A stretch of DNA of 64,000 nucleotides from Zootoca vivipara (lineage: Eukaryota): the NCBI RefSeq assembly GCF_963506605.1, contig NC_083281.1, positions 41,788,001 through 41,852,000 of the forward strand. Reading direction: 5' to 3'. Position 1 is the stretch's first letter; every line of letters starts with the position of its first letter. Positions 17,438 through 57,199 of the stretch are shown here, piece by piece. The position numbers were made by a program, and so were the translations under genes. The notes beneath the pieces are model-generated. The model ran no database searches. It worked only from the letters and a program-made list of their open reading frames with translations, and was not told the origin of the DNA.

Positions 17438-20479
<3,042 letters not shown>

Positions 20480-22483: not shown

Positions 22484-22696
22484 CTTCAGTCCCTTTCAGC
22501 TGGGCCATAGGGTATTTGGTCAGGTCACGTTAAGCTGGTGGCTTGTTTGCTGCTAGAGCACAGCTGCACTGCATTTGAGGTGGAACAGGAAGCCTGGACT
22601 AAAGGGATAAAGAAACGGAATGAGAGGGGTGTCCTAAAGCATAGCAGAGAATGGCCAGGCAGTGTGCTGGTTCCTTCAAAATGTCCAACATTGAAC

Positions 22697-23028
22697 TCCC
22701 ATGGACTGCAAGAAGATCAAACCTATCCATTCTGAAGGAAATCAGCCCCGAGTGCTCACTGGAAGGACAGATCGTGAAGCTGAGGCTCCAATACTTTGGC
22801 CACCTCATGAGAAGAGAAGACTCCCTGGAAAGGACCCTGATGTTGGGAAAGATTGAGGGCACAAGGAGAAGGGGACAACAGAGGATGAGGTGGTTGGACA
22901 GTGTTCTCGAAGCTACCAACATGAGTTTGACCAAACTGCGGGAGGCAGTGGAAGACAGGAGTGCCTGGCATGCTCTGGTCCATGGGGTCACGAAGAGTCG
23001 GACACAACTAAACGACTAATCAACAACA
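22697..23028 (+). mobile_element. Bov-B (RTE) LINE 3' fragment
   Basis: PWTARRSNLSILKEISPECSLEGQIVKLRLQYFGHLMRREDSLERTLMLGKIEGTRRRGQQRMRWLDSV and (CAA)n tail, characteristic of Bov-B. Confidence 0.93.
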
Positions 23029-28789: not shown

Positions 28790-28964
28790 GGTTACAAACT
28801 CCGCTAACCCGGAAGCAGTACCTCGGGTTGTGAACCTTGCCCCAGGATGAGAACGGAAATTGCGTGCCGGCATTGGCAGCAGGAGGCCCTATTAGCTACA
28901 GTGGTACCTCAGGTTAAGAACGGACCTCCAGAATGAATTAAGTTCGTAACCCGAGGTACCACTG
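28790..28964. mobile_element. Tc1/Mariner (Tigger-like) MITE fragment
   Basis: TACAGTGGTACCTC...GAGGTACCACTG termini; same family as 44824-45040 and 57200-57413. Confidence 0.75.
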
Positions 28965-29219
28965 TGTGTGTGTGTGTCCAAAACTTTTGCAAAATCTGTA
29001 TGTTGGGCAGAAATGCTGAGAATTGTGTCACATAACTGTATCAGGTCTGAAGCACATCCACCCCTTCTAAATGCTGTTCTGACTCACCTGCGTCCATCAT
29101 ATCTGTCTGCTCCTCCAACAGTTTCCTCTGGAAGACCTTTTCTTTTCTACAGTCAGGTCCACAGGACTTTCTGGAGCAAAACAGACACGTTTGCTGCCTG
29201 GGCCCAGCCTCTCCCTGCC

Positions 29220-32200
29220 ATGGAGTTTGCGGAGTTGATCAAGACCACCAAGGTGGACCATGTGGTGCTGTCACGTCCAGGACTCCCGTCCGTCAAAGGG
29301 ACACTTTGCATCACCAGTCACCACCTCCTTCTATCTTCCCAGCCGGGGGGAAACGGGGAACAGGGCCAGATTGAGCTGTGGCTTCTTATTCGCAATGTGG
29401 ACGCCATTGAGAAAAGGTGACTGTCTCTCCCACATCATACCTCCCCCACCCCCACCCCCAGCATCATTCGACCGGTTAAGAATCACCGAGGCTCCATATG
29501 CATGAAGTCAAAATGCTGTTGCTTTGCTCCCCGGTTTGTGAACTAACCAAACAAAGCCTTACAGAACCTGAGCAAATCAGAACCCCTTCTACTCCCCCAC
29601 ACCAAGAACAACTTGCAAAGGAGCTGCAGTTTTTAAGAGAAGCATTGCTGAGCCTAAACCCAGATCGAAGTCTTGCAAAGTGACCTCAGTGCAAAACATT
29701 AGCAAATGATGCAAAGCTCTGGGGAGGGTTGTAGCTCAGTGGCAGGACATCTGCTTGGCATGCAGAAGGTCCCAGGTTCAGTTCCCAAAGGACATCTTCA
29801 GGCAAGGCTGGGAAAGACTCCCTGCCTGAAACCCTGCTGCATTTATCATTAAATCTTCCCAATGTCTGGAGCAGGGGTAGGCAACCTAAGGCCCGTGGGC
29901 CAGATGTGGCCCAATCGCCTTCTCAATCCGGCCCACGGACAGTCCAGGAATCAGCGTGTTTTTACATGAGCAGAATGTGTCCTTTTATTTAAAATGCATC
30001 TCTGAGTTATTTGTGGGGCCTGCCTGGTGTTTTTACATGAGTTAATTGGTGTAGACAATCCTGAGTACCAATGGTCTGACTCGGTGTAAGGCTGCTTTTT
30101 ATATTCTTATGTTGTTCCTATCGTGCCCACCTCAGGCTAGTGTCCTGGCTCATGAAGTCACAGACCAATAGAAGCATAGAATTGTATAGTTGTAAGGGAC
30201 CACAGAGGGACACAGGTGGCGCTGTGGTTAAACCACTGAGCCTAGGGCTTGCTGATCAGAAGGTCGGCAGTTCGAATCCCTGTGACGTTGCTTGGTCCCA
30301 GCTCCTGCCAACCTAGCACTTCGAAAGCACGTCAAAATGCAAGTAGATAAATAGGAACCGCTACAGTGGGAAGGTAAACATCGTTTCCGTGTGCTGCTCT
30401 GGTTTGCCAGAAGCGGCTTTGTCATGCTGGCCACATGACCTGGAAGCTGTACGCCGGCTCCCTCAGCCAATAATGTGAGATGAGCATGCAACCCCAGAGT
30501 CGGTCACGACTGGACCTAATGGTCAGGGGTCCCTTTACCTTTACCTTTAAGGGACCACAGGGGTCATCTAGTCCAACCCCCCCGTAATGCAGGACTATTT
30601 TCCCCCAACGTGGGACTTGAACACACAACCCTGATATTAAGACATGCTGCATCAACTGAGCTAATGCTCCAAGGTCCAGTTGCCACCTTTTACCCTGGCT
30701 GTGCTCCGGTGCTCTTTTAACAGCAGCCTAATGTATGGACACTGAGCATGTGCTGTTTGAACTGAGTGTTGGCAAAGAGCCTTGCCTCCCTAATATCTTC
30801 ATCTCAGGCTGCTGTGAAAGGCAGAAGAGCAGGGCTGGGAGAGAAAAGTTGGTAACCCTGCTGGGGTGGCAAGAAGATGCTGGGCCGTCTACCTTGCCAA
30901 ATGACCCCAAAATCAGAACCACATTTGGCTTCTTGTCAGATGAGGATCAAACCAGCAACCGCTGCCCAGACCACCAACCTCTTGCATGCACCTGTGGCAC
31001 AATGCTAACCTCTCCTCTTTCCTTCCTGTGACTCCCCAGCGTTCAGAATCTAAGTTGGTATCAAAGCGCCCGGACTAACGGCTCCCCCCCAGGAACCAGG
31101 TTCGCCTTTTAACTCCATTTCAAGCTGCGAGGCATGGCCGCAGCTTAGAGGCTCAGTGTGTGTCTGCTCCTCAGCTTGCGCTGCTTGCCAAACTGGTGTG
31201 TGGGCTGAAGCAGTCCTAGGCCTCACATTTCCAGAAGACCCGCCTCATGCCTGGAAGATGCCTGCCACTATTTTCTTGAACCCTGTTTGTACAGGGAGAA
31301 ACGCATGCAAGTTACCCTGCCTTTGATTTCTGCACCTACAGCCAGGGCGGGGGGGGGAGGGGGATTGTGCAAGTGGGTGAGAGCACAGGAAGGCATAATC
31401 TGAAGCGGAGCTCCCCAGGACATGTGGAGGAATCACAATGTGTCTCTGAGCATGTGCAGTGTGTCCATCCCTCACCCCTAAGTATCCATTCCCACACCTT
31501 AGTTATTTAATGCTGATTTTATTTATTTTTAAAATTATTTTATTTTATTTATGTTACTGTTTTTTGGGGGGGGGAACGGGGTGGGCAGGTGTGGATTCCC
31601 TGGTCCTGAATGGGGTAACTGTGCCCCTGAAGGACCAGGTGTGCAGCCTGGGAGTCATTTTGGACTCACAGCTGTCTATGGAGGCACAGGTCAATTCTGT
31701 GTCCAGGGCAGCTGTCTATCAGCTCCATCTGGTACGCAGGCTGAGACCCTACCTGCCCGCGGACTGTCTCGCCAGAGTGGTGCATGCTCTGGTTATCTCC
31801 TGCTTGGACTACTGCAATGCGCTCTAAGTGGGGCTACCTTTAAAGGTGACCTGGAAACTGCAACTAATCCAGAATGCGGCAGCTGGACTGGTGACTGGGA
31901 TTGGCCGCTGAGGCCATATACCACCGGTCCTGAAAGACCTACATTGGCTCCCAGTATGTTTCCGAGCACAATTTGAAGTGCTTGTGCTGACCCTTAAAGC
32001 CCTAAATGGCCTCGGCCCAGTATACCTGAAGGAGCGTCTCCACTCCTGTCATTCTGCCCGGACACTGAGGTCCAGCTCCGACGTCCAGCTTCTGGCGGTT
32101 CCCGCACTGTGAGAAGTGAGGTCACAGGGAACCAGGTAGAGGCCCTTCTCAGTAGTGGCGCCCACCCTGTGGAACGCATCAGATGTCAAGGAAATAAACA

Positions 32201-32288
32201 ACTATCTGACTTTTAGAAGACATCTGAAGGCGGCTGCCTAGAGTGGCTGAGGAAACCCAGCTAGATGGGCGGGGGTATAAATAAATGA

Positions 32289-32334
<46 letters not shown>

Positions 32335-33115
32335 TCATTATAACACTGATTTTAACATTGTATTTTAAATTGCTGTAACCTGCCCTGGGACCCTGTGGTG
32401 AAGGGTGGGCAAGAACTTGTAGCAGTAGCAATAATAATAATAATAATAATAATAATGGAGGCTACCTCAATTAGAGGAGAATCCTTCCATCTGCAGACAG
32501 CATAGGAGGTTGCCTTATCCTGAGTCATACAGCTGCTCCATTTAGCTCAGTATTGTTTAGGGCAGCCCACATGGCACCCTCCAGCTGCTGTTGTATTAAT
32601 GTAGATTCGAAAAGACATTTCTGCTCTTTGAGCCAGCTCTCCCCTCTCTGCTTTGCTTTCTGTCTCTCCCAGCAGGCTGCTCATGTGACTTCCTGCCCGT
32701 CTCAAACCCAGAGTGTGCAGCTGATTGGGATTGTGGCCAAAGGCCTCCACACCCACCAAGCTCATTGCTCCTGCCTCTTCTGCTGCAGAGAAGCTCACTG
32801 GGGGTGGGGGGGAGGAAAGTGCCTCTGGATCTTCCCCTGCCCCTATTCACTGCCCTTTTATTTCATTTCCCCCTGCAGGCTTGCAAACGCTTCGGGCACC
32901 ATCACGCTCAAATGCAAAGACTTGAAAATTCTGCAGCTGGAGATCCCTGGGATGGAAGAGTGTCTTAACATCGCCAGCTCCATTGAGGTGAACAACATGC
33001 CCATCCCATGTAGCTTTATCTGAACTCAGGTGTAGATAAATGCCCTCTGAACATGCACAGAGTGCCTGTCATTGTCACAGCCAGCCCACAAATTCCTTGA
33101 GAAAAGGTGGCAGGG

Positions 33116-33156
<41 letters not shown>

Positions 33157-33733
33157 TTATTCCCCGCCCATCTGGATGGTCCCTTCTGCCTCTGCACCCC
33201 CTCCAATGGTAGTTTAAATTACCTTGGCCTTTGAGGGAAGGAAAAGCACTTTGTGGTAGCTCAAAATGACAACTAAAGGGCAGGATGAGTAACTGAGGTT
33301 CCCCTTCTCTTCCTCAAATCATAACAGGAAGGCAAAGACGTAAGTTAAATTCTGGTTCTATTTTTTAAAAAAATCTCTGTGAGTTTGGAAGGGCCAGGTT
33401 GAGCCTGTCAGTAACCTGAATCTAGACTGCTATGGTGGCCCGCAGCCAGGATTCCTCACCTGGGGTTGCTAGCTTGAGTGGCCTACTCTCTGTCGACCAG
33501 CCGAAGGGGGCGGGAGGCTTTGCTAGACCAGACCTATCCCCTCCAGAAAAGCAGATATCAATGGTGCATGTGTATGCATGATGTATACCAGCCTTCTTCA
33601 ACCAGGTGCTCTCCAGATGTTTTGGACTACAACTTCCATCGATAACGCAGTGATTGTGTTTGTAGCCAGAAATATCTGGAAGTGCTGACTTGGGCTGACC
33701 TGTCATTCAAAACATCTGCAGAGCCCTAGGCAC

Positions 33734-33768
<35 letters not shown>

Positions 33769-35579
33769 GACACACATTGGCCCAGTGCACATGTCACTGT
33801 AAACCATGGTTAATGGTTAGTCATGCATGCACTAAGCTGGGCTGTTGTGCACTTCCCCAGTCACACTTAGGAGAAACAAATGATCCCCGGCTTAGCATAG
33901 TTTCAGCCCCAAACTAGTAATCCAAGAACAAACCATTTCACTGTCAAATAGCTCTTAACACTTATAAGCTCTTACCACTTCTTGAAATTTGGATCCATTG
34001 TTTCAGATCCTTCCCTCTGGAGCAGCAGAAAACAAGCTTGCTCCATCTTCCATGGAACAGCCCTTCAGATATTTGAAGATACCGTATTTTTTCGTGTATA
34101 ACACGCTGCCCCCTATTTTGGGGGACTCGAAGTTAAGAAAATGGGGGGGGGGGGTTGACCAGAATTGTTGAGCTTTTTTGGGGAGGGTTGCTTGGAGTTG
34201 TTGAGGGGTTTTTTTGGGGAGGGGTGCCCACACATGTTTAGCTTGGGGGTGGGTGGGGAGATTGCCGGAAATCACTCACCATAATGACTGGCGCCAACTG
34301 GCACCAACGGTCGTCCTCATGATTGGTGCACCAGTAGCCAATCAACAGCAGCCCTTGACACAGCCAACAAACAGCCGCGGCTACAACCAAATTGCCCACC
34401 ACCCCTCAGCACTACCCATGTATAAGACGACCCCAAATTTTTAACATGGTTTTGGGGTAAAAAAACCTACCTAGTCTTATACAAGGAAAAATAATGTATT
34501 TGACAACCTCTCAGTTGTCTCTTCTCCAGGCTAAACATACCCAACTCCCACAGATTAGGGATCAGCAGCTGCTTGCCCTCTGCCCAAAATCCAGCTTCAT
34601 GAACAATGCATGGAGCCAACCCAAATGGGAAAAGAGAAACCAAGGCAATAGGATTTGGCTGGAGGCTATTCTGCCCAGGATTGGGAGAAGTGACTTGCCC
34701 CCCACCATTCTCTGTCCCCTTTATCAACCTGGGTCTCTGGTGAGGCCAGTTGCCGACCAGCATGCAGCTGCCACTATCTTCTACCCCCCCCCCCACACAA
34801 AGGACTTGACTGGCAGTATTGCCAGTCAACACAAATTACCCATTTTTATAACAGCAACTTTTATTTGTTGCATTTTTTCCAGGGACCCCAGGGCAGCTTA
34901 TGTTGCTTTCCCCAGCCCACAACCCTTTTTATTCCCAGAACATATGACAAGCTCCAGGTCACTGACTCACGGCCACGCGTCAGATTTGGAACCCAGGTCC
35001 AGTCTCATGCTGTGACCACAGAGGACCCCGTTGATAGGAAAGGGGGAAACTTGCACCTCCCAGGCACATACCTGAGTTGCTCCCATATGGGGGGGCAGCT
35101 TTGCCTTGCGCACACTGGCCTTAGAAGCACCCAGAAGTGACTGGGGGGTGTCACAAGACTGGCTGACCTGGCTTGCATCCCACAGGCAGCACAGGAAGGC
35201 TCTCTGGCTCTTTGGCAAGGGCTGCTGCTGGCCTGTTTATTTGTCCGTCGCTAACCCGCTAGCACAGGCAGCTTCTGTTCGCCTCGGGATTTCCTTGTTG
35301 GAAGGCAAACAATACCGAGAGGTGGAAAAGCATGAAAAAGATCCAAGTTATTTTTCCACATCAGGCACCATTAACCCTTCCAGAGGGATGTCCCTGAGCA
35401 GCAAGGCAGCGATGGCAGGAAAGGTCATCACTTCCCCAGGATCCAGTTCTGAGAAGCTGAGAGACAATTCAGAATGTCATACGAGATGCACTCAAGGCCA
35501 CCAATGCTGCCTTGACTGCCCTACGGCATAGAGTTGGGTGGCTGGGCAATGCAAAACACTAACACCCAGACACACACCC

Positions 35580-35628
<49 letters not shown>

Positions 35629-36628
35629 TTGCAGTATTTCCCTCTCTGGCTTCTGACATGCTTGCCCATAGGGTTCCAAGCATCTCTTTGCAGCCATAAG
35701 GACTATAAACTTTTTTTAAAAAAGAGCAAAAGCTGACACCCTGATGCATCAGCCCAGCCTTACTCTATCGTTAACAGCACCGAATAGAAAAAGGGTAGGG
35801 AAATAGCCTGCAAGATAAGGAGAGGGTGCTTTGGTGCAGGAGAACACACCCACCCACCTGACCATTTTACCTGCACAGACCCCTGGCTGCTGCAACTCAC
35901 CAGGCTCAGGGCTTTCAAATTATTATTATTATTTCTAAAATTTATACACCGCTTGATTGTTTAGAAACCCTCAAAGCGGTTTACAAAAATAATTCTAGAC
36001 ACTGGAGATGTTTTAAGTCTGTGCCGCTCCCTCTTCCCTATGGTTGGCAGAGCCAGAGCCCCTTAAGCAGGTTATTTAGGTAAGTGGCAGCGGGTGGGGT
36101 GGGGGGCTGCCAGTTCAAAAAGACACAATTGGTCTCGGCCAGCCTTCACCAACCTGGTGCCATCTACATGTTTTGCACTACAACTGCCGTGAGCCTCATG
36201 CTGGCTGGGGCTGATGGGAGCTGCAATCTGAAACATCTGGAGGCCTCCAGACCGGTGAAGGCTAGGTGTGGGGAAAGCTCCTGGGGATGATCCACCGCCC
36301 TTGTTCTCTTGCAGGCCCTCTCCTCCGTGGAGTCGGTGATGATGACGTACCCCTTCTTCTACAGACCACAGAACATGAAGCTGGAAGACGGGTGGGGGCT
36401 GCACCGCCTTGAGGAATTCTTCCAGCAAATAGCTGCAGATGTGAGTCACGAGGGGCTGTGGTTTTGCAGAGGCAGAGAAAAGCAGGGGTGATGGCTGTGG
36501 GGGGGGCAACTTCCCTCCATGTCCAAAGGAGTAGCACCCCTTCGCTCCCTGCCAGCCTTGCAGTTAGTCTGGACCTCAAGCCATATTGCCCAGAGAAGGG
36601 CAGGAGTCTGCCGCAGAAGACAAGCACA

Positions 36629-36666
<38 letters not shown>

Positions 36667-39600
36667 ATTCACCCTGGCACCCATCGAAATGTCTCCTCTT
36701 CCCCCAGGGCAGGGCAAGCAATCCCACCCTATAGCCAACTCTTGACCTGAACTGCCCTATCCCCTTATCCCATAAAGGGTGGTGGGACATTTGGTCCCTG
36801 GAGGGGACACCCAACTGGATGACAGCATCAAAAGAAACAGTATTCTACTTGCCACTGGACTTGACAATTTCCAGATAAAATTTCCTCCCCCCCCTTCAAA
36901 TATCATTTTCATTTTCATTTTCATTTTACACTTGAAACAATAACATTTCAAATAAAAGAAATGCGCAATTAATATTGACTCCCCTTCACCCCCCCCCCTT
37001 TCCATGGTGCATTTTATTACTTTCTTATCCATTACATAATTCTAATTTCTCGCTATATCTTTTTTCTACTTGCTACTGGCCTTGACAATTTCTGAATAAA
37101 ACTTCCATTTCAAAAAATGACCAACTACACAGGGTATATAGAATCTACCTTAAAAATTGCATATAATCATTTATTTTATCTACATCTGATTAAACCCCTG
37201 ATTAAATGTAACACTTTTTTTTAAGGCTGGTATTATAACAAGGAGTCCTCCAATTTAACTGCCCCAATCCTTTCCTTTGGCCTGAAGTTTCCTTGCAGTT
37301 TAAAGAAAACCGCATTAACTAAAATGCATGGTGGGTGGGGCTATATAACACCACACACACACCCCAACCTGCCACTGTGGGGTTGGCAGACACACACCAA
37401 AGACGATGGGGAGGCTGAGGGAGGAGCTCAGTGCCAATCTACTGGGCTGCTTCTGGCTTAAGGGCAGCAGTTCCAGACCTCTGCCTTGCAGGCTACAGGA
37501 AACAATCTGACGTTGACCCACTTCCCAGACAGGTGCCTGGAGGCTCAGCTATGTCAATGAGGATTTTGGGGCCTGCTCCAGCTACCCGCCCGTTGTCGTC
37601 GTGCCAACCAAAGTGGAGGAGGGAGCCCTGAGAGAGAGTGCCCGTTTCCGTCATGGGGGACGATTCCCCATCCTCAGCTATTACCACAAAAAGAATGGGA
37701 CTGTGAGTCCACCTTCATTTCCAGTGTCTCTTTCCTGCACCCGTCTTCCCACAGACCACACACTCCTAGTCTCCTGTGTTATTCTGCGGTGGCTGGTGGT
37801 GGTGGCAGAGCTTCAGAAAACAAGCTTGCCTGTTTTGTCTGAAGCTGAGCAAGTTATGCAAAAAAAATAAAATAAATCACTTATTTGGTAAATTAGTAAG
37901 CTGCCCTTCGGAGCAAGAATTAGGCAAGAAATGGTGCAATGTGAACTTGCATAACTGATGCACAGTTGTTATCTGTCGTGCAGTTACATTAGGAAGCTCC
38001 CTTGCCATGAGCCAAACCACTGGTCTAGCGAAAATAGTCCACTGCTCAATTATGTTCAGGGAAAGAACACAGGAAGAGTGCCTGATGCAAAGTCTAGCCA
38101 GTCCAGCAGCTCTCTGGGGTTTCAGATAGGGGTGCCCTTTCCCAGCCCCATCAGAGGACTGAACCTGAACCTTTTGCATGAAAGCAAAAAGACTACCCCT
38201 TAAAAAAGATACTGTGGCATTTGAAAAGGTTCAGAAATGATCAAGGAGGGGATGGAGAGCCTGCCCTGTGGAGAAAGGTTGCAGCGGGTGGGACTTTCCA
38301 GTAAGAGGCGACATGATAGGGATTTATATAATTCTGCATGGTATGGAGAAAGTGGGAAGAGAAAAACTTTCCCTTCTCTCTCATAACACTAGAACTTGCG
38401 AAGTTGAATGTGAGAAGATTCAGGACAGACAAAAGGAACTCCCTTCAAGCAGCTATGAAGCTATGGAACACACTCCCCCAGGAGGCAGTGAGGGCCACCA
38501 ACTTGGCTGGACAAATTAATGGAGGCCATGGCTATCAATGGCTACTAGCCGTCATGGCTGTGCTCTGCCTCCACAGCCAGAGGCAGAAATGCTTCTAAAT
38601 GCCAGTTCCTGGAAACCGCAGAAGGGGGGAGAGCACTCTTGTGGTTGGGTCCTGCTTGTGGGTTTTTCGTTGGGGCACCTGGTCAACCACTGTGAGAACA
38701 GGATGCCAGGCTAGATGGGCCAACGGGCTCTTTTTCTGCACTTTACTACTGAGCTTGAGCCACCCCTGTTGCAAAGGATATTATTAACATTATTATTACT
38801 TCATGAAATTTATACACCGCTTGATTGTAAAAGCAAAACAAAACTCAGAGTTGTTTACAAAAAAATAAAATAAAATCATCAGTGAGAAAAATTAACAGCA
38901 AGACTTTCAGAAAGCTAAAAGAGCAATAGTCTAAAAACAGATGAGAAAGGATTGACTCCTTTGGCCCCTATGGCAGCGTTCCTGCAGGGATTTGCAACGA
39001 ACGATCACGGCAGGGGAAGAGAGCTCCGGTGCTGCCACAGAGGCCCCCTCACCCCCCACCTGCCCATCCTTCTCATGTTGCTTTGGCAGGTGATGCTCCG
39101 CAGCAGTCAACCCCTGGTGGGGCCCAACCGGAAGCGCTGCCAGAAGGATGAGCTGCTGCTGCATGCTGTGCTGGCAGGGGGGGACCGTGGCTTCGTCCTG
39201 GAGACCAGGTCAGCGCAGGCAGCCAAGCAGGCAAGGATGCTGGGGGGAGGCACAGAGCACCGGAGTGCCTATCCTGGTTGGAAGAGATTTCACCGGCCTC
39301 TGGAGAGGTGAGCATGCTTTCAGGGCCCCAGAAATGAAATGGAGAAGTAGTTAACTAGAGCTCAACCGTCTAGCTCAGTGAGTGGCTTTGGGCTGGTGAC
39401 CGTCTCTCTCAGTCTAACCTACATCCCAGGGTGGTTGTGAGGATAAAACAGGGAAGGGGGAACCACATTTGTATAAACTCCCTGCAGGAAAGGTGGGGTA
39501 TGAATGTGAGAAATAAAACAATGAGCAGGGCACACCAGGGCACAAATGGAATGGAAAACCGATTTTAAAAGAAAAGCCGATTTTAAAAGAAAAAGTCCAA

Positions 39601-42600
39601 AGGAGAATAAGCAGAGCTGGGTGTGGTCTGTGCTTATGTGGCTCTGTCTACTTTGCAGGCATCACCTGGTTTACAGGTAATTTCTTCTGCTGAGATAGTA
39701 CAGGAAATATCACTCTGATGATGGTCCTGGGATCAAACTACATTTCTCCAGATCCCAGACTATTTTCTTTTCTTTTATTCTTTCATATCAGCAATTTTTA
39801 AAATACAATTTTACCAGTACCTACTCCCTCAAGGCTCCATCTATAACCAAACAGGTTAATAGCTCAAAAAGTAAAAGGCGGCTGTGTTGGTGCTTAATTC
39901 TCCTCCTGTATCAAATTCGCAAAAAAAAAACAAAAAAAACTGCCATTTGCTCCGATTCAGCAGTAGAGCACAGGTTTTCCTGGGGAAAGTGCAGGGATAA
40001 AAAACAACAATACTCAGACATGGAGCTTTAAAAACACGGCGAAAAAAGGAAGTAGGGATGAGCAGATGCATCCATCCTCCGATTGTGGAAGGAGAATGTA
40101 GCTTTCATGGCTAGTAGCCACCGAATGGCTTATCCTCCACATTTTGACCAAGTCTCCTTCTCTCTCTCTTTGCTCCTTCCCTGCCAACCCCCTCCCCCCT
40201 CCCACAGGGGTCGTCCCCTCCAAGAGAGCTTCATCAAGCTGGTGGAGGCTTGCAACGACCCGTCCCACAACATGGACCGCTGGCTGAGCAAGCTTGAAGC
40301 CTCCAAATGGCTGTACCATGTCAAGGAAGCCCTGAGCACCGCCTGCCTTGCGGCCCAGTGCATGGACAGGTAGTGATGCAGGCAGGGAGACCCAGACACC
40401 TCCCTCTATCCCATCCTCTGCAGCAGGCTGGGTTGACACGGGCTCAGGTGAACTCTGCAGAGGCAGGTGTAGAATAGACTAGAAAGGGGGATTAGAAAGG
40501 AGGGGTGAGAAGACAGTAGGAAAAGTCCCTTGAGCAGGACCACATTTCTGTTGGGCTGCGCAGGGTGGTGCCAAGCTACTGGGCATTCTGCGGCTTGCTT
40601 ACAGGGAGGAGGCCTGCGTCTTGGTGCACGGAGCCGAAGGGACAGACACAACCTTGCTGGTGACAGCCCTTGCCCAGGTCATCCTGGATCCCAACTGCAG
40701 GACACTCGCCGGGTTCCAGGGGCTGCTGGAACGGGAGTGGATACAGGTACCGGTACCTGCGGCGGGTGGGGCTTCAAGTGCCAGGTCTCAGTATGAAGGG
40801 TGCCCTGCTGCCCTGCATCTTCAGATCCTATGGGGTTATCCTCAGTGCACCCTTTATCTCTGGCTTTACGTACTGACTTGTTATAAACCAGCCTTTTCCA
40901 TAGAGGATAAGGCTACCATTAGCTCCTAATTGTGAAGGCTATACGGTAGCCTTGAGCAGATCTTTCTATATGGTGGGTCTTTGCCAGGGCAGTCTACAAC
41001 TCCCATCAGCCCCAGAGAGCATGGCTGTATGATGCTGGGGTTGAGGGGAACTAGGCCGTGTTAGCAGGGCCTGATGGGAGTTGTAGTCCAAAATTATCTG
41101 GAGTCCACCAGATTGGTGAAAGGCTGTTAAAAGCCATTCAAGCAAGCCTGTGTGCTAGAGGTATGTGTGGCCATCACACACATGTACATTCATGTGTGCA
41201 TGTGATTGTGCATGCACACAGGAGGCCATAAGGACTAGCAATGCCCTTTTTATGTTCCCACCTGCCCACTGCTCCTTGCTCCTCCTAGGCTGGGCATCCG
41301 TTCTGCCTCCGCTGCGCCCACTCGGCCTACTCCCACGTCCGTCTCAAGCATGAGGCGCCCACCTTCCTCCTCTTCCTTGACTGCGTCTGGCAACTGGGGC
41401 GCCAGTTTCCCTTATCGCTGGAGTTCAACGAGGGCTTCCTCTTGGCGCTCTTCGAGCACAGCTACGCGTCTCCCTATGGCACCTTCCTGTGCAACAATGA
41501 GAAAGAAAGGTGAGGCAAAAGTTGGGAGAGCGATACTGAGACTTGAGGCAAAGAGGCTTGGCAGCGGGGGAGGCATCAAACAGCTTGACCAGGTCTTCAA
41601 AATGTCATCCAATGATTTGAACTGGGTCTTTGCGCTTTTATAGGCAGCTGCCCTATAGAGTCAGATCACTAGCTTATCTAACTCAGTCCTCTCCACACCA
41701 GAGGTGGGGAACTGGATCCAGCCAGCCAACCAGATCCTTAAATCTCCACCAGTGGGCAGGATCCCAGTGATTGTCAGGGCTTCAAACCATAGAGCTGGGA
41801 GCCGATGGTTGGTTTCCTGTGCCCTGGGCTTTGCTGGCCTGCAAGCCCCTCTTTGGCCCAGTGGCATCCTTATTTTTATAGGGGCAGGTGGGCAAGGCTT
41901 GGTTGAAATGGCCACACAAGCCAAATGGGGAGGCTGGCAGGCCTACTCTGACTGGCAGCAGCTTGCCACGGTTTCAGGCAGGGGTCTTGCCCAGCTGTGC
42001 CTTGAGATGCCATTGACTGAACAGGGGACCCTCTACATGCAAAGTAGACCTTCTGCCACTAAGCTATGGCCCCACACTGCCAGAAAGTATGCAGGTTTCC
42101 TGCTCCTGAACTGCGACTCCTCCAATCTAACGGCAGTCAGGGCAAGGAGAGAAATGGATGGCAACAGCTCAAGTGTTCATAGGAAGCTCACACAATCAAA
42201 AAGCCCATGGGACATTCCAATGCAACTCTTGCATTGTTACCGGTACTGGCTCTTATAAATTACAGCGCCACATGGTGGAGGTGAAGAGCAGGAAAGGCAG
42301 AACTTCTGCACCATGGTAAAGGTAAAGGGACCCCTGACCATTAGGTCCAGTCGTGACTGACTCTGGGGTTGCGGGACTCATCTCGTGTTATTGGCCAAGG
42401 GAGCCGGCGTACAGTTTCCAGGTCATGTGGCCAGCATGACAAAGCCGCTTCTGGCGAACGGCGTTTACCTTCCTGCTGTAGCGGTACCTATTTATCTACT
42501 TGCACTTTGATGTGCTTTTGAACTGCTAGGTGGGCAGGAGTTGGGACCGAGCAACGGGAGCTCACTCCGTCGCAGGGATTCGAACAGCCGACCTTCTGAT

Positions 42601-44626
42601 CGGCAAGCCCTAGGCTCCGTGGTTTAACCCACGTGGCTTAACCCCGTGGTTTAACTATCCCCGTGCAGGTTGAGTGATTATATAAATCTAGACACACACA
42701 AACAAATGCAGAGGCTGGTGCCCCTGCTTGCATTGTTCCCCAACCCCACCTACACCTCTGCCAACCACTCCAGCCCCATCCTTCCCTTTACATCTCACCC
42801 AAATCCCCATCCTCACACAGCTCCCCTGTGTCCTGCCACCCCTGCTTTATTCAAACCTCTGATGTTGTTTAAAACCACCATTTTTAAACCTGCCTATTCT
42901 TCTGCTCCCATCTCCCTTCCTGGCCTCATGCAAAACCAGGTTTGTAGTGTGGCCATCTTCTAATGGAGACTGTGTGGTGACAGCCTTACATTTTTATGTG
43001 TATGGGAGAGAGAGACAAAGAGAAAACACACACACACAAATTTCACAGGGAAATGTCACCATCAGGTGTTAAATTGCCACCGTACTTTCATGGTTACTCG
43101 TTCTTACGGATGCAACCCCCATGTGGTGAAACAGAGATGCAGCCACAAGATGGGAGGGGCACCCAAAAGCTACAAGTACAAAACAGCCTACGCACATCCG
43201 ATTGCAGTTGCTCACATCAGCCCTCTCTATTGTCAAGATCTCAGGATTCATTGTCATTGTAGAACTCAGGATAGGATTGGGGAACTCACGGCCCTCTTTC
43301 ATTCTTGATCACTGGCCACATTGGCTGTTGGTGGGAACCGCAAGGTCTCCCTCCTTGCCCTAAAAGGAGTGCTCAAGTTTCTGGTTCAGACCCTCCCAGC
43401 CAGCCAGACCCTCCCTCCAGGGTTCCCCTCCTGCCCCCAAACTGCAGGGTAGTTCAACAGGTGCAGCACCTGTGTATTATATTATTAAGCACTTCTCCAC
43501 ATTCTAGCATAGCCTTTACCAGCCAGGTTTCTTCCAGAGGTTGGTACTGTTCTAGCTCAGACCTACCCCGCAAGAGGGACTAAAATGTCACCATCTCCCC
43601 CTGCAGGAAGCTCTGTGACGTGAAGGAGAAGACACACTCACTCTGGCCCTGGCTGAATAGCAAAGTGGGGGAGTTCCTGAATCCGCTCTATGCACACAAC
43701 CCCTTGGTTATCTGGCCATCGGTGGAGCCGCAGAGTTTGCTGCTCTGGCAAGGTAGGATAGATAAGTCCATTCTCTCTCAAAATAGGGACACAAACTTGC
43801 TTTATTTGCACTCTGTGGTCTGTAACCAAATCCAAGCCCCCCACCATATCAGGACAGAAGTATGAGAGGAATTCAATATAGCACTAAAACAAATGTTTCA
43901 TCAGCACAAGCGTTTCTGGTTACATGATGGAACAACCTCCTCTCTCCTTCCCCCAACTTGCTTTGCACCAGCAGGAACCCAAGCATTGGTTCCCGCAAGT
44001 GGAATTACTTGATTTTAGAAGCTCCAATATGTCACAGTGCTGGCAAATTTTCAGTCTTCTTGAGGACTTGAAACTTTTATTTTTTTTTAAAAAAAAATTA
44101 ATTTGTGGACAACTTTGTATTGCTAATTTCCATTACATTTAAAAACTGGGGTGGGGTATCCTTTTAAATAAACTTTAATTCACTTTAGCAATTCTCTTAT
44201 ACATTGGGGCTTCAAAGAACATTTTAGTCCTTTGCAATTGTGGTGCAATCAAACCCTTTTATTGCATATACATTTCACTGACTGATTCGGATTATGCTAC
44301 AACATGCCCATTTGGGATATCCAAATACCTTTCCTATTCCTTCAGCTGCAGCATTTTACTCGATATTCCTCTTCCAGACTATTAGTTATGGTGATACAAT
44401 ACTGCTACCATCCCAATCACAGCAAGAGCCCAGAGTCGAAGGGGAGTAGAAGAGGAAATAACTTTAATTACTGTACTACTTTTTCAACCTGCTATATATG
44501 GGGATATAGATATTAATCTAACAATTTCCTACAGGCTTATTCCTCCGCTGGGTCCGCTCATCCCACTATCTAGATGACGCATGGGGAGAAATTCAGAAAA
44601 TAGTGAAGTCCACACAGGAAGACTGA
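29220..44626 (+). CDS. Myotubularin-related protein 9-like (MTMR9 paralogue, catalytically inactive), 528 aa (548 aa with cassette exon). Exons: 29220-29416, [31040-31099], 32879-32987, 36315-36440, 37529-37702, 39090-39307, 40208-40369, 40605-40746, 41289-41509, 43607-43752, 44535-44626
   Basis: MEFAELIKTTKVDHVVLSRP...GTITLKCKDLKILQLEIPGMEECLNIASSIEALSS...YPFFYRP...RFRHGGRFPILSYYHKKNG...LRSSQPLVG...LVHGAEGTDTTLLVTALAQ...LEREWIQAGHPF...FEHSYASPYGTFLCNNEKER...IWPSVEPQSLLLWQGLFLRW. All junctions GT-AG; open frame of 1587 nt; syntenic with human MTMR9LP. Confidence 0.93.
29722..29836 (+). mobile_element. tRNA-derived SINE (Squam3-like)
   Basis: GTAGCTCAGTGG A box, GCATGCAGAAGGTCCCAGGTTCAGTTCCC B box; relatives at about 41980-42075 (-), 45500-45590 (-), 60682-60740 (+). 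Confidence 0.7.
30206..30547 (+). mobile_element. Sauria SINE inserted into a CR1 3' fragment, in MTMR9-like intron 1
   Basis: A/B boxes, ACCTTT tail; 13-bp TSD TAAGGGACCACAG at 30193-30205 and 30548-30560. Confidence 0.9.
31040..31099 (+). CDS. Candidate 60-nt symmetric cassette exon of the MTMR9-like gene (adds SVQNLSWYQSARTNGSPPGT)
   Basis: Branch-like TGCTAAC, polypyrimidine tract and CAG acceptor; AG|GT donor; phase 2-2; stop-free in frame. Confidence 0.6.
31575..32335 (+). mobile_element. L2-clade LINE 3' fragment with (TTA)n tail
   Basis: VCSLGVILDSQLSMEAQVNSVSRAAVYQLHLVRRLRPYL...HALVISCLDYCNAL, LQLIQNAAA, LHWLPV. Confidence 0.85.
34082..34493. mobile_element. Non-autonomous Mariner-like DNA element
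   Basis: TACCGTATTTTTTCGTGTATAA 5' end; internal TATAAGACG repeat; GTCTTATACAAGGAAAA 3' end. Confidence 0.55.
35581..35627. repeat. (ATT)n microsatellite (others at 12181-12212, 33116-33156; CA/GT runs at 19026-19058, 19248-19288, 36631-36664)
   Basis: Direct reading. Confidence 0.9.
38214..38730 (+). mobile_element. CR1 LINE 3' fragment
   Basis: Degenerate LEKVQ...RGDMI..Y...GMEKV, 'AGATTCAGGACAGACAAAAGGAA', 'TGGAACACACTCCCCCAGGAGGCAGTG' and typical 3' UTR. Confidence 0.75.
42316..42650 (-). mobile_element. Sauria SINE in MTMR9-like intron
   Basis: Near-identical to the copy at 803-1158. Confidence 0.9.
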
Positions 44627-46252: not shown

Positions 46253-49200
46253 TCAAACTTCAAACTCAAATTCAAAGTACTGGGGATCAAAATAATGGAT
46301 GCGAACATAACCGTCCTCTCCACCGCTGCTGTAACTGAAAGCAGGAACAAAGCAGAAACAAAGTTATAGATTCAATTCCGGGAGTTCCACATTTCACCCT
46401 GGTGAGATGCACACCCGCTTAGAACACAGGGAGATGGACACCCTTACCTCTTTCCATCAGGGTGGAAAGCGACACTGTTAATAGGGCCAAAGTGGCCCTT
46501 GACTCTCCCAAATTCTTCCTCAACGCCCAGGTGGAAGAACCTAGAACCACGAAGGAAAAGGCAGTGAGATACAAGCAACAGAGCCCAGATGTTCATGCTG
46601 AGACTATCTTCAACATACCTCACCAAAGGGGTAACCATTGCCTACTGGTTGCTTGGGGAATTGACTGCATCACCACCATCACCCCCTTGCAGGAATAGGA
46701 GAAGCCAAAATTTGCTCACCTGGCCTCAAACTTGCCAATCCTGGTGGAAGTGGTCGTCACATCCATGGCCTCCTGTCCACCACCCAACACCACCTGCCAA
46801 AGAGGGAATGGGGGATGGGGAGAGAACACCTCAGTCACACACTCCTTTGTAGCATGTTAATGGGCCAAGGACTCAGAGCCCAATACATGATGTCTTCACT
46901 TTCCACCACACAGCAAAACATACTAACCAAGGATAGCCTAACTTCTGTCTACAGTCTGGTAACCTCTAGATTAGATTTGCAATGCATTGTACATGGGGCT
47001 GCTTTTGAAGCTGCTTCAGAAATGGCAGCTAGTGCTATAGAGTCTTGTGTGTCTTAGGACCCCAATACCTCAAGGACCACCTCTCCCCATATGAGCTGAC
47101 CCAGACCTTGCAATCATCATCTGAGGCCCTTCTCCATCGGGCCCCACTGTAGGAGGTCTGGAGGGTGGCAACATGCAAGAGGCCTTTTTCAGTGCTAGCT
47201 CCCTGCTGGTGGAATGCTCCCCCCCGGCACAATCATTACATACCATCAGGCACCAGAGAAAAAACATGTCAGGCATTTGGCTTTTAATTATGTGTGACCT
47301 CCTTCAGTGGGTAGCGCATTTTAAAAATATGCCTTTTTTAAAAATATGAATGTGTTTCAGAGTTTTTTCCTGTTCTGTTCAATGCTGGTTTAAATGTATG
47401 TGTTATTTATTGTTGTAAGTCGCTGTGGGTAACTTTTTTAAAAAGCAACCAATAAGTTTAATAAGAAATACTTAAATACTGTACATAAATAAATAATATA
47501 CTGGTGTTCTAGTGCCCACATGAATTCTAGGAGTTCTCCCAGCAACCAGACAACAGGGATGATAATCAATAATCAATACTTTAAGCTCTGGCCCACCCGA
47601 GTGTCTCCAAGGGGTATAGAATCATAGAGTTGGAAGAGACCACAAGGGCCATCCAGTCCAACGCCCTGCCAAGCAGGGTAGAGAAATGGGGAACCCTAGC
47701 CAATGCTCCCTGCTTGCTCTTTCACTCTTGAGTCTTGCCCCTCCATCTCTCAGTGTATTGTCACATCACACCTACCCAATCCTACTGAAGCCAGGAGGAG
47801 CTGGCAAAGGAGGCAATGCACAACCAACAGCATATATTCAAAAGGTAACATACGAGTCTAGCATCTCTGTCTCACATGGGGAAGATCTTTCACAAGCCTC
47901 TGGGACTCTATGAATGTCTAGCTATGAGGACGGGTGGGGATGCCCCGAAACAAGGGAGAGGTGCCCCATATGGCCCACCAACATACATGATCAAAGATGG
48001 GGGAGAGGGCTGCAGAGTTCACTGGCCGCTCTGTCCGGAACGTCTTCAGGTGGTCAAGCGTCGTGCAGTCAAACAGCTGCAGAGGAAGAAGTGAATTGGC
48101 AGAAGCCTTCTTAGCACACGCATCTCTTAAAGGCACAAAGCATCAGAGTCCTGGGAAAGGTCCCAGTCACCCGCCCTGGGAATGCCACAGCATCATGCCT
48201 AACCAGACGAGCACAAGAAGCAGACTTATCAGCCACTGCAGAGACCACCCAATGGCGATGGCAGCAGGCAGCCCATTGCGGTGGCTGCAGCAAGCACAAA
48301 ACAGACCTCAGAAGCCAAGGAGGGCTTCTTCTGATTGATGGTGCATTGTGACATGCACTGATTTATTACACTGTTTTAAGCAATCTTCAGTCCTTTGTCC
48401 AGCTGAGACAGGAGCCCCAGGCTGTGCCACCAATTCCAAACCAGGAAACTGCTATTTGGTGCAAGCAGCTCTTGTGCCATATCAAACTTAAGAGCCTGGC
48501 AGCTGGATCAGGCCAATGGTGCATCTAGTTTAGCATTCTCTTATCACAGTGGCCACCCAGAGTCCCAAATGGGAAGCCCACAAGCAGGACCCAGGCACAA
48601 GAGTACTCCTTCCACCTGTGATTCTCAGCAACTGGGAGTCAGATGTGTACTGCCTTCAACAGTGGAAATGGAACCTATTCATAAAAGCCTTCTCTTCCAG
48701 CACTTCCTAGTATGCTAAAACATGGATGGGGAGTATGGGAAGCTTCCTTTTGGGGTCACCTTTTTACCTCTCCGTGGCTACTAATGGGTTTTGCACCAAT
48801 CTCAAATTCCACACTTAAAGAGGGCAAATCAGGGAAATATGCAGGACGCACCTTGGCAGTGTTATCCTTGGAGGCAGTGATGAACATGGTCATGTCTCGA
48901 GAGGTCTGAATGTCATTGATCTGTTTGGTGTGCTCTTTGACGTTCATGAGGACCTCTCCTGACTAAAAGAGGAAAGAGAGGTGAAGGAAACTGAGCACCT
49001 CCAGACCAATGGAGGAAGAAACCACATCTTTCTCAAGTCCTGAATAAAACAGCCCATCCAAAACAGCTGACATGCATAAAAAAGAGAGACAAACAATACA
49101 AGACAATTTGTCATTTGGTTATCAGCTGCAGCTCACAGTTCCAACCCACACTAACCTTTGCACTGAACTGGTTCAACTCCCCGTTCTCATGTCCCGCAAT

Positions 49201-51950
49201 AATGTATTCCCCAAGGGGACCCCAAACAGCGCTGGTGATTTTGGAATCACTACAGGGGATCTTCATGTATGGCTCGTTGTCCTCTGTAGACAAAGCAAAA
49301 CAGGGTGAGATTCAGAGATGCCAAAGGGCAGGGGAGGCAGCCACCCATCCCAACCCTGAGCCCTCCACCTAGTGGCCTCACCAATCTGGCTGGAGTCACG
49401 GAGGTCAAAGAAGCTCACAAAACACTGGTAGCCCATTTGTTTGTCTGTGGAAAACATGATGATGTTCCCTCCAAAGTCAAAGCCGCAGGTACGCACGGCT
49501 GAGTTGGTCTTGACCAGAGCAAGCTGCTTCCCTAAGGCAAAAGACATCACACATAAAACTAGCCTGAAGGAAGGTATGCAAATCTCTGTATACCAGGTCC
49601 ATCAGTTCTGACCTGCTCTCCAAGGCCTCAGGCACAGGAGTAGGGTGGTTGGGGAACGAGAGCTTTCCCAGCTCTGCTACCAGAGGCTTTTCAACCAGGG
49701 ATGCCGAGGACTGGATTCTGGTACCTTACTGATTCAAAACCAGTGTGCTGCAGCCCACCTCTTATCGTCAGATAAGCGCCTGCCAAGCTTAAGAGTTCAA
49801 TCCTACACGTTTACCCAGAGGCAAGACCAAATGGGTTCAGTGGGGCCTTTTCCCAAATCAGCCTTAAGTTGATAGGTTTTTAATCCAGCCTTCCCCAAAC
49901 TGGCACCCATCAGATGTTCTGGCTTACAACTCCCATCAGCCTCAGGCATCTCCACCCTGCCTCACTATGGAGTGCTCCCATCATTCCACAAAAGCTTTTG
50001 TTTGAGGTTCTACCTGTCTCACAGTCCCAGAGCCGGCAGCTGTTGTCTGCAGAGCCTGTCAGCACATGCCTCGTGTCCCCTATAGGAGCAGTCAAGGAAC
50101 CAAAACACAATTATGTACAACTTACAGAAGGAGGTGTATATGACTTACTGCACAGCTTCAAGTATCCATACCAAATGAATTCCAAAGCATGGCTCATCCA
50201 ACTGCACAAGCCTTTTGCTGTCAGGTGTCTGGGGCAAAACTTCAACATCTTTCATATGAATCTAAGCATCCAGGAAGTTTCTTTTAACCAATCTGTATTC
50301 TTTAAAAAGTAGGTGTTCTGTAGGGTTATTACGATCTACTAATATGTTCAAAGTCATATTTGTACTAATTAGCCTCTTAGTCAAACTCATAAATTTGGTT
50401 ATTGTCTGTGAAAGTCAAGCACTATGACCCTTGTCTCCTTGATGGTACAGGCAGCTACTCTAATCCCCAAATTAGAGGTCAAAAATAACATTAATGTAAG
50501 GCCCAGCCACTACTCCAGGAGTAGCCAATGCAGTGTCCATGTTCCTGGACTCAGCTCCCATCAGCCCCAGCCAGAATGCCCAATCAATGGTCAGGGATAT
50601 AGGAGCTGGGAATACAGAAATATTGGCTATGCCTCCACTACTCTCTGAAATGCTCACTCCAACTGCAAAGTCTCTCAAGAGTATCTCAACTTAATACTTG
50701 AAAAAGGGTCAAAAATACCAAAGGATACAGTCAGCATCCACACACCAGACTGCGCCAGTATGTCCGCTGTATGTGCCGAGTCTCTCCCCGTTGACAGAGT
50801 ACCAAACATTAACAATCTGATAAAAGAAGAATAATCATATTATGAAAATGCACCCAAAACAGAAAGACAAGAACAAAATTACCACCCTCTAGTCTACCTG
50901 ATTTTGGACAATGTATTGACTACTTAATGGCTTGTGAGAAGCAAACAAATTTGCACTGAATTTTGGTGAGGGGGAAGTACTGGAAGAACTGTTTATATGG
51001 TTAACTACAAATCAGCAATACCTTCAAAAGGAAAAGAAAATAATATGCTAAATAGGCAACAATGTATACTTTTTAAAGGCAGCAAGAAGTTGCGACTGTG
51101 AGAAAGGTGTAGAAAAGAACAGTTCGAGGAAAACATACCGGATCTTTTGCTACTGTGAATAACAAGTCTCCTTCCCTGTTATATTTGATCTGAGTAATTG
51201 ATCTCTCGTGGCCTTGCAACAATATGGGTTTCTGTGAAGAAATGTACTATTAAATCACATATTCTTTATTACCCACCCTTCAACCTAAGGTCTCGGGGTG
51301 GGTTACAACATTAAAGAAGTTTAAAACAACTTTAAATTCATAAAATCCTCAGTTTAGTTGTTGAGCTGAACATTAGTTACTAAAACCACAAATAACTACA
51401 ATCTATTTAGACTCCACGCACAGGATCTGCAATAGGACCCTTCAGATATACGGCAGGAATGAAGCTCTCTTTAATAAGGCCATTTCGGTAAGGCAAGCCA
51501 AGAGGGTGAGGGCGGGGAGGGAAGGGGGAAATTGTCATTTCAACAGCATCGCAAGGCGCTCGCTCTCCCCCCCCCCACCTCTGCCGTGTAGAGGAAATAC
51601 CGTAGTTCGGCCATTACTACTTTTTAAACCTACCGAGCAAAGCAATTGGTGGGTTATCAGACGAGGAAGGGGGGTGTCGGCGTTTGTGGGTTGGGGGGAA
51701 GAATATAAACAAGACAAGGAGGCAGTCTGGATTTAGGGTGTGGCGGCTTCCGAAAGCGTCGTGCGCGCACACGGACACGCGTCCCGTTTCTGCGCGGGGC
51801 TCGAAAGAAACAAGCATGAAAACAACCCGCAGTGCGGCCTATAAAAGCCTACAGGTAAAGCGCACAGGCGGTAAAACAACGCCCGGGTCAATTAAGAAAC
51901 CCCATTCGATAAATCCGGAGGGCGGCGGGGGATAAAGGGAGTCTTACCAT
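46253..51950 (-). CDS. EIF3I: Eukaryotic translation initiation factor 3 subunit I, 325 aa. Coding exons: 51948-51950, 51139-51231, 50729-50816, 50014-50079, 49382-49531, 49156-49283, 48852-48962, 47987-48076, 46720-46793, 46448-46540, 46253-46334
   Basis: M|[31 protein letters not shown]|[30 protein letters not shown]...[10 protein letters not shown]...[43 protein letters not shown]; exons sum to 978 nt; WD40 repeats. Confidence 0.98.
46930..47300 (+). mobile_element. Decayed L2-clade LINE fragment in EIF3I intron
   Basis: CTGGTAACCTCTAGATTAGATT...GGGCTGC and CCCCAATACCTCAAGGACCACCTCTCCCC...GGCCTTTTTCAGTGC...TGGAATGCTCC. Confidence 0.55.
50080..50728 (-). other. U12-type (minor spliceosome) GT-AG intron in EIF3I
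   Basis: 5' splice site GTATCCTTT; branch point TTCCTTGAC (50091-50099) about 10 nt before the AG; no long pyrimidine tract. Confidence 0.92.
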
Positions 51951-52482: not shown

Positions 52483-56082
<3,600 letters not shown>

Positions 56083-56812: not shown

Positions 56813-56818
56813 AATAAA
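56813..56818 (+). terminator. Candidate TMEM234 polyadenylation signal
   Basis: AATAAA about 730 nt after the stop; further AATAAA near 56955-56970. Confidence 0.45.
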
Positions 56819-57199
56819 AAACAATTCTGCATTTGAGTACCAGTATGTGCAGAGTGGCTTTTCCCTGCCACTGTGCAACTACAGCTCCCCACCCACCCAA
56901 ACCACTGGAAAGGGCAGGCTGGGCAGGGCATCTTGAGCTCCAGCACTAAAGAAAAAATAAATGAAATAAACCCCTGATAACTCTGGGCAAAGCATAAATC
57001 TTGTGTTGGCTACATTTGCAAAGTTTCAGGTGTGGACAGCTTTACCCTCTTCTTCAGAAACTCCCCAGTGTTTTCAATGAACTCCAGAAAGAGTAATTAG
57101 TTGACCACATGTGGGACTTGCAACAGAGTGTTGCAGTGGTTGTTGGTGGTTTTTTTTAATTAAAAAAAAAATTAAAGATTTTCTTGGTTTACATAAGTA

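What the first reader, a model, noticed from the sequence alone, without database searches (positions are those of the whole stretch)
29220..44626. Intact protein-coding counterpart of the human pseudogene MTMR9LP
Seen: ten canonical exons, an open 528-codon frame, exon phases and sizes like MTMR9, and a dead active-site motif VHGAEGTDTT in place of HCSDGWDRT. Known: human has the pseudogene MTMR9LP between EIF3I and FAM167B, true MTMR9 lies near the paralogous BLK-FAM167A block, and MTMR9 regulates MTMR6/7/8. Inference: an ancient ohnologue, functional in lizards and lost in the human lineage, i.e. an essentially uncharacterised second phosphoinositide-phosphatase adaptor.
Basis: partly seen in the sequence, partly recalled or inferred. 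Interest (0 to 1): 0.7.

Follow-up and report, generated by a model that had tools for sequence, protein, structure and literature searches.

The report
Coil-less second MTMR9 lost in humans
This lizard gene is an intact, transcribed sister copy of the enzyme-dead lipid-phosphatase regulator MTMR9, found from sharks to lemurs and likely the gene that humans keep only as the pseudogene MTMR9LP; it lacks the far half of MTMR9's coiled-coil tail and is predicted to bind its active partner enzymes through the enzyme core instead.

Summary
Observation confirmed: ten GT-AG exons give an open 528-aa frame with a dead P-loop. The gene is already annotated: the 11-exon model equals RefSeq XP_034973538.2, 'MTMR9-like'. 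It is not lizard-specific; intact copies run from chimaera and sharks to birds, cow, rabbit and lemurs. Trees split it from true MTMR9 before the jawed-vertebrate crown. Both genes sit in matching kinase-FAM167 blocks, which fits an ohnologue; orthology to human MTMR9LP rests on gene order. Not found in the paper searches: the distal coiled coil is kept in 147 of 156 MTMR9 proteins and 0 of 121 '9-like' ones, and a 20-residue PH-GRAM microexon is confined to this paralogue. A model of the coelacanth copy with MTMR6 passes (0.83, best control 0.00) through the core surface that MTMR8 uses without its coil. That pass may reflect likeness only. Verdict: an uncharacterised, coil-truncated variant of a known regulator; binding is untested.

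The parts
29220..29416 (+). Exon 1 (ATG; first part of PH-GRAM domain)
   Evidence: depth 6-12 in RNA run X23, none in X21 and X22; contig of X1 covers 29178-29417
31040..31099 (+).
   Evidence: 15 spliced reads, 11 starts; in RefSeq isoform; homologous insert in shark, ray, frog, turtle, bird, snake and lizard 9-like proteins, 0 of 134 MTMR9 rows; low-confidence loop in the model
32879..32987 (+). Exon 2 (109 nt)
36315..36440 (+). Exon 3 (126 nt)
37529..37702 (+). Exon 4 (174 nt)
39090..39307 (+). Exon 5 (218 nt)
40208..40369 (+). Exon 6 (162 nt); holds the MDRWL motif (40272-40286), centre of the predicted dimer surface
40605..40746 (+). Exon 7 (142 nt); dead P-loop VHGAEGTDTT at 40624-40653 (Cys to Gly, Arg to Thr)
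41289..41509 (+). Exon 8 (221 nt)
43607..43752 (+). Exon 9 (146 nt); SVEPQSLLL (43719-43745), second half of the predicted dimer surface
44535..44626 (+). Exon 10 (92 nt to stop; 179 nt in MTMR9): short terminal helix, distal coiled coil absent
17441..20479 (-). Neighbour FAM167B-type gene (two coding exons), synteny marker
   Evidence: Pfam FAM167 7.5e-44 for the last exon; first exon read by eye
47921..49601 (-). Neighbour EIF3I (four exons tested), synteny marker
   Evidence: Pfam EIF3I hits
53317..53805 (+). Open frame holding a TMEM234 exon, synteny marker
   Evidence: Pfam TMEM234 9.9e-11

Best explanation
This is an intact, transcribed MTMR9 paralogue older than the shark-bony fish split, with a dead active site and no distal coiled coil; it is likely the orthologue of human MTMR9LP and likely works as an alternative, weaker regulatory subunit predicted to pair with MTMR6/7/8 through the phosphatase core. 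Shown: gene structure, transcription in one sample, dead P-loop, separate clade, loss of the distal coil, private microexon. Inferred: origin in a vertebrate genome duplication; pairing through the alpha6-alpha7/alpha7 and alpha16-alpha17 surface plus the short remaining helix; tuning of the partner's stability, location or PI3P versus PI(3,5)P2 activity as MTMR9 does, without the long coil clamp, so that the partner's own coil stays partly free; microexon as a switch on the PH-GRAM domain.
For: Separate clade of 24 rows (SH-aLRT 99) sister to MTMR9 (16 rows, 96-98), each with cartilaginous fish to mammals; both alternatives rejected by AU test. Matching blocks: Src-family kinase, FAM167 and MTMR9-type gene on C6 and on C3. 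No Cys or Arg at the catalytic positions in 133 of 133 parsed 9-like rows, of 139. Distal 21 coil residues at least 50% identical in 147 of 156 MTMR9 rows and 0 of 121 9-like rows. Coelacanth 9-like with coelacanth MTMR6: score 0.83, best of 3 controls 0.00, runs share at least 91% of contacts, partner pLDDT at least 88; the mark was reached by 51 of 78 solved and 2 of 108 mismatched pairs. The interface falls on the elements by which MTMR8 is reported to dimerise without its coil (PMC4809516; helix numbering is my count). W295, L296, Q489 and L493 are invariant in 24 of 24 9-like rows. Three MTMR6/7/8-type loci exist in this genome.
Against: A like complex is solved (MTMR8 homodimer 4Y7I) and close cousins of true partners passed 10 of 12 times, so may show likeness only; it used the coelacanth pair and had no MTMR9 positive control. 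Predicted interface columns are not significantly better conserved within the 9-like clade than other columns (0.79 versus 0.75, p 0.17; polar only p 0.35), and are less conserved in placentals. MTMR1 needs its coil to dimerise, and MTMR9-MTMR7 pairing is assigned to the coils. The paralogue evolves faster than MTMR9 (75% versus 88% identity to chicken). Only 1 of 3 raw RNA runs showed reads. No human pseudogene sequence was compared.
Confidence: 0.55

Rival explanations
1. It no longer binds MTMR6/7/8 in cells. After losing the coil it works alone or as a homodimer, as a lipid-binding pseudophosphatase or scaffold with other partners, in the way MTMR10 lacks a coil.
For: Distal coil absent in 0 of 121 rows retaining it; first half of the helix also diverged (median 31% identity to MTMR9; prolines in placentals); interface conservation not significant; coil needed for MTMR1 dimers.
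Against: Complex model passes with about 120 contacts, mostly on the core; 25 of 34 core-interface residues identical to MTMR9 versus 217 of 358 elsewhere; MTMR8 dimerises without its coil.
Confidence: 0.22
2. It is a functionally redundant second MTMR9 adaptor that differs only in expression; the coil loss has no effect.
For: Same exon layout and 61% identity; same dead P-loop; complex model passes.
Against: The distal coil is highly conserved in MTMR9 (median 86%) and absent in the whole sister clade; isolated MTMR9 coil (494-549) binds the MTMR7 coil and forms trimers; private microexon.
Confidence: 0.2
3. It is a decaying duplicate on the way to becoming a pseudogene, open in this lizard by inertia.
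For: Faster evolution than MTMR9; no reads in 2 of 3 RNA runs; human copy is handled as a lncRNA.
Against: Full-length proteins from chimaera to lemur, 57-81% identical to the window gene; conserved microexon in sharks and lizards; paralogue dN 0.32 versus dS 1.34 (near saturation); 8-11 changes in about 540 residues between lacertids.
Confidence: 0.03

Closest known systems
MTMR9 (inactive myotubularin, partner of MTMR6/7/8)
   Same: PH-GRAM plus myotubularin phosphatase fold, same ten-exon layout, same dead P-loop type HGxEGxDxT, 58-61% identity.
   Different: Separate clade since before the jawed-vertebrate crown; distal coiled coil lost; 20-aa microexon in PH-GRAM; faster evolution; different chromosome block.
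RefSeq 'myotubularin-related protein 9-like' (UniRef label zgc:154055 on the coelacanth copy)
   Same: This is that gene: 0 differences from XP_034973538.2, microexon included.
   Different: Automatic label only; no functional or evolutionary paper found. Some copies are labelled plain 'MTMR9' (chimaera P0422, pig, sifaka).
Human MTMR9LP (1p35.1)
   Same: Flanks EIF3I on the side opposite TMEM234 (PMC6340182); same segment as FAM167B, LCK, IQCC (PMC8269103), as in the window.
   Different: Treated as non-coding RNA in the papers seen; its sequence was not compared here.
MTMR8 phosphatase-domain homodimer (PDB 4Y7I)
   Same: Coil-independent dimer surface; the predicted heterodimer interface appears to use the same elements.
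   Different: MTMR8 is active and keeps its coil; here one subunit would be dead and coil-truncated.
MTMR10
   Same: Inactive and described as lacking a coiled coil (PMC11878207).
   Different: Not the MTMR9 branch; not compared directly here.

Membership tests
Myotubularin family | PH-GRAM domain followed by myotubularin phosphatase domain | tested here: met
   PF21098 3.2e-8 and PF06602 4.6e-124 on P0002, 98% identical to the window gene; Foldseek TM 0.78 to MTMR2 for the python orthologue model
Active myotubularins (MTM1, MTMR1-4, 6-8) | C(X)5R motif | tested here: not met
   HGAEGTDT versus HCSDGWDR; no Cys or Arg in 133 parsed 9-like rows
MTMR9 subfamily (MTMR9 plus paralogue) | Sister to MTMR9 against invertebrate MTMR9; shared exon phases | tested here: met
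MTMR9 orthologues proper | Falls inside the MTMR9 clade | tested here: not met
   AU test p 2.8e-45; true MTMR9 is on C3
MTMR9 orthologues proper | Full C-terminal coiled coil | tested here: not met
   0 of 121 9-like rows versus 147 of 156 MTMR9 rows
Regulatory subunit of MTMR6/7/8 | Forms a heterodimer with MTMR6/7/8 | tested here: inconclusive
   Model passes, 0.83 versus 0.00, but a like dimer is solved and close cousins pass; interface conservation p 0.17
Regulatory subunit of MTMR6/7/8 | Changes the partner's activity, substrate choice or stability | not testable with these tools
   needs enzyme assay
Vertebrate genome-duplication ohnologue | Duplication after the invertebrate split and before the jawed-vertebrate crown | tested here: met
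   both clades hold chimaera, skate, coelacanth; no lamprey, hagfish or named amphioxus MTMR9 in the tree
Vertebrate genome-duplication ohnologue | Several paralogous neighbours on another chromosome | tested here: met
   three gene pairs on C6 and C3; a segmental duplication of that age is not excluded; the C3 kinase is Src-family but its BLK name is recalled (best hits HCK/LCK)
Orthologue of human MTMR9LP | Same neighbours | tested here: met
   with papers
Orthologue of human MTMR9LP | Pseudogene exons group with this clade | not testable with these tools
   no human genomic sequence on hand

The most novel reading that the evidence does not exclude
Jawed vertebrates keep two kinds of regulatory subunit for MTMR6/7/8: MTMR9, which clamps the partner's coiled coil, and this coil-less paralogue, which docks on the core only and leaves that coil free for targets such as the KCa3.1 channel, or displaces MTMR9; a microexon conserved from sharks to birds switches its PH-GRAM domain by tissue. 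Humans lost this arm after the lemur split, so human and non-human PI3P control differ at this node.
Probability: 0.2. Interest if true: 0.7.

Novelty: new variant of a known kind. Interest (0 to 1): 0.42.

Why it matters
The myotubularin family is counted from the human gene set, so this member is missing from the reviews seen. It is a natural coil-deletion version of MTMR9, kept since sharks and bony fish split. That makes a structural question directly testable: do MTMR6/7/8 pair with their regulator through the coil or through the core? It also marks a human gene loss that the three gene-loss supplements searched do not list, and warns that some database 'MTMR9' entries in pig, chimaera and lemurs are this paralogue. 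Interest is held down because the gene is already annotated and its function is only predicted.

Tried and rejected
Lizard-specific duplication: rejected (p-AU 2e-47). N-terminal extension from the in-frame ATG at 29013, as in some RefSeq isoforms: depth 0-0.2 over 28978-29155 in the one expressing run, so no support in that sample; not excluded. Enrichment of conservation at the predicted interface: not significant. A profile of the MTMR9 distal coil hit 172 of 183 MTMR9-side rows (partly by construction), 0 of 140 9-like rows, but also 0 of 8 invertebrate rows at 10 bits (best 9.8), so the claim that the coil is ancestral rests on heptad-like tails read by eye. The coiled-coil score used an approximate propensity table from memory (window 0.87, C3 MTMR9 1.52) and is only supporting. 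The bootstrap tree did not finish; supports are SH-aLRT. Orthologue dN/dS could not be run: no orthologous DNA. Reads were laid only on 28800-31450, so junctions of exons 2-10 and exon skipping were not read-tested. 'Mtmr9b' in PMC7253214 is a footnote mark; one search was swamped by an unrelated number. Mochizuki and Majerus 2003 and Zou 2009 were not readable and are cited only through reviews. No monkey, ape, mouse, rat or teleost copy appeared in the capped lists (120 of 738, 120 of 930, 120 of 1274); this is not evidence of loss. Earlier scan notes: none.
Full report
Observation. The ten exons named in the finding join through nine GT-AG introns into 528 codons plus a stop, with VHGAEGTDTT at 40624-40653. 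An exon-8 search of the window's genome gave 11 matches: this locus, a 71% match on C3, and nine matches at 44-55%, three of them MTMR6/7/8-type. The C3 gene is a 555-aa MTMR9 with the same intron phases, identical sizes for exons 2-8 and 322 of 524 identical residues.

A missed exon and expression. A 60-nt exon lies at 31040-31099. Reads were laid on 28800-31450 only, about 6% of each run. Of three raw RNA runs, X23 covered exon 1 (depth 6-12) and the microexon, with 15 reads from 11 starts across the 1623-nt intron; X21 and X22 had no reads on exon 1. A contig of X1 (RNA by guess) covers 29178-29417. The 11-exon model has 0 differences from RefSeq XP_034973538.2 of Zootoca vivipara, so the gene and the microexon are already annotated, under the automatic name 'MTMR9-like'.

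Distribution and age. Searches listed 120 of 738, 120 of 930 and 120 of 1274 hits. Full-length 9-like proteins occur in chimaera, sharks, rays, sturgeon, coelacanth, lungfish, frogs, turtles, birds, tuatara, squamates, echidna, opossum, many placental orders, rabbit, squirrels, kangaroo rats and five lemur genera. In a 47-row tree (rows chosen by me to span taxa; microexon and tail columns left out) 24 9-like rows form one clade (SH-aLRT 99), sister to 16 MTMR9 rows (96-98), with 7 outgroup rows outside, 4 of them unnamed. Holding the window gene with MTMR9, or the lizard paralogues together, is rejected (p-AU 3e-45 and 2e-47). The duplication therefore predates the shark-bony fish split.

Neighbourhood. 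Left of the gene lie FAM167 and, just outside the window, a Src-family kinase whose best hits are LCK and HCK at equal score. To the right lie EIF3I and TMEM234. On C3 a FAM167 paralogue (65%) lies about 306 kb from MTMR9, with another Src-family kinase beside it; calling it BLK is recalled, since ranked HCK and LCK higher. Three gene pairs fit an ohnologue. Human MTMR9LP and TMEM234 flank EIF3I (PMC6340182, passage) in a 1p35.1 segment with FAM167B, LCK and IQCC (PMC8269103, passage). Orthology to MTMR9LP rests on this order alone. Intact lemur copies put the human-line loss after the lemur split (inference).

Selection. No orthologous DNA was on hand. Against the paralogue, dN is 0.32 and dS 1.34, near saturation. 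Identity to orthologues is 81% (anole), 75% (chicken), 67% (cow) and 64% (chimaera), against 96, 88, 91 (bat) and 87% for MTMR9: constrained, but faster.

What differs from MTMR9. Of 322 proteins, 139 sorted as 9-like and 183 to the MTMR9 side; these are isoforms and 90% clusters, not independent. Neither catalytic residue appears in the 133 9-like and 178 MTMR9-side rows that parsed. After dropping 18 and 27 rows without a canonical last exon, the distal 21 residues of the coil are at least 50% identical to lizard MTMR9 in 147 of 156 MTMR9 rows and 0 of 121 9-like rows (maximum 19%). The window protein stops 29 residues short. Invertebrate rows keep a heptad-like tail by eye, so loss in the 9-like stem is the likely direction, though the coil profile did not detect those tails. 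The microexon-type insert appears in 20 of 114 parsed 9-like rows (sharks, rays, frogs, turtle, birds, squamates; no mammal; 4 further cetacean rows carry an unrelated insert) and 0 of 134 MTMR9 rows. In a model of the python orthologue (pLDDT 82, pTM 0.88) it is a low-confidence loop in PH-GRAM and the terminal helix is 18 residues; the fold matches MTMR1, 2, 6 and 8.

Mechanism. PMC11878207 (sections 1 and 3.4 read) reports that MTMR dimers form through the coil, and that the MTMR9 coil (494-549) binds the MTMR7 coil and forms trimers; it also warns that structure prediction does not tell coil pairs apart (passage). PMC4809516 (first part of the results) reports that MTMR1 needs its coil, while the MTMR8 phosphatase domain dimerises without one through the alpha6-alpha7 loop, alpha7 and the alpha16-alpha17 loop, and that MTMR6 uses its coil towards KCa3.1. 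A model of coelacanth 9-like with coelacanth MTMR6 (100-550) scored 0.83 against a best control of 0.00, with runs sharing at least 91% of contacts and partner pLDDT at least 88; the mark was reached by 51 of 78 solved and 2 of 108 mismatched microbial pairs, and 71 of 105 solved and 2 of 126 unrelated eukaryotic pairs. The interface is residues 284-309, 410-414, 474-495 and the short helix 499-519, which by my helix count are the MTMR8 elements. Against this: a like dimer is solved, close cousins passed 10 of 12 times, there was no MTMR9 control, and interface columns are no better conserved than others in the clade (p 0.17), although 25 of 34 core contacts match MTMR9 versus 217 of 358 elsewhere. 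I put core docking as an alternative regulatory subunit at 0.55, no binding at 0.22, plain redundancy at 0.20 and decay at 0.03.

Literature. Ten searches found no study of this gene's protein or evolution; MTMR9LP appears in 18 papers, seen as listings and three as passages, as a lncRNA or list entry. Supplement searches of PMC7555810, PMC10195156 and PMC2864566 (one held file each) gave only true MTMR9 rows or nothing. PMC10961392, PMC12176553, PMC7354644 and PMC7253214 were seen as passages, and the first quarter of PMC7555810 as text. Subscription journals, preprint supplements and whole-genome gene-loss resources were not searchable and may already record the loss.

Verdict. Real, functional-looking and already annotated; the undescribed points are the clade-wide loss of the distal coil, the ancient microexon and a testable coil-independent docking model. 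New variant of a known kind, interest 0.42.

Noticed in passing
window 53800-59000: No doublecortin (DCX) domain among 62 open frames of 45 aa or more scanned between TMEM234 and beyond IQCC, though human DCDC2B is listed in this segment (its place between TMEM234 and IQCC is recalled). It may be absent or moved in this lizard; short exons would be missed.
   Followed up: partly
window 59078-61072 (-) and 63807-63998 (-): Frames that look like IQCC (weak IQ motif hit) and a CCDC28B-like exon (name recalled, no Pfam hit).
   Followed up: partly
window 5755-6952 (+), 22645-23016 (+), 31450-32200, 52841-53131: LINE fragments (weak RVT_1 hit at 5755-6075); types not determined.
   Followed up: no
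window 29870-30580: SINE-like repeats in intron 1 draw thousands of reads from elsewhere in the genome.
   Followed up: no
P0011, P0039, P0041, P0056, P0070 (placental 9-like proteins): Placental copies carry prolines at the start of the terminal helix and lack the microexon; the predicted interface is less conserved than other columns. This may be relaxation ahead of the human-line loss.
   Followed up: partly
P0121, P0275 (frog 9-like proteins): Very long branch (0.6-0.7) in ranid-type frogs, with a diverged microexon and interface.
   Followed up: no
P0422, P0519, P0536, P0575: Database entries named plain 'MTMR9' in chimaera, sifaka, pig and sturgeon have 9-like features (tree for P0422; motifs for the others).
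   Followed up: partly
G000 C6 41.78-41.83 Mb versus C3 115.07-115.46 Mb: FAM167 and the MTMR9-type gene are divergent on C6 but convergent on C3, implying local inversions after the duplication.
   Followed up: no
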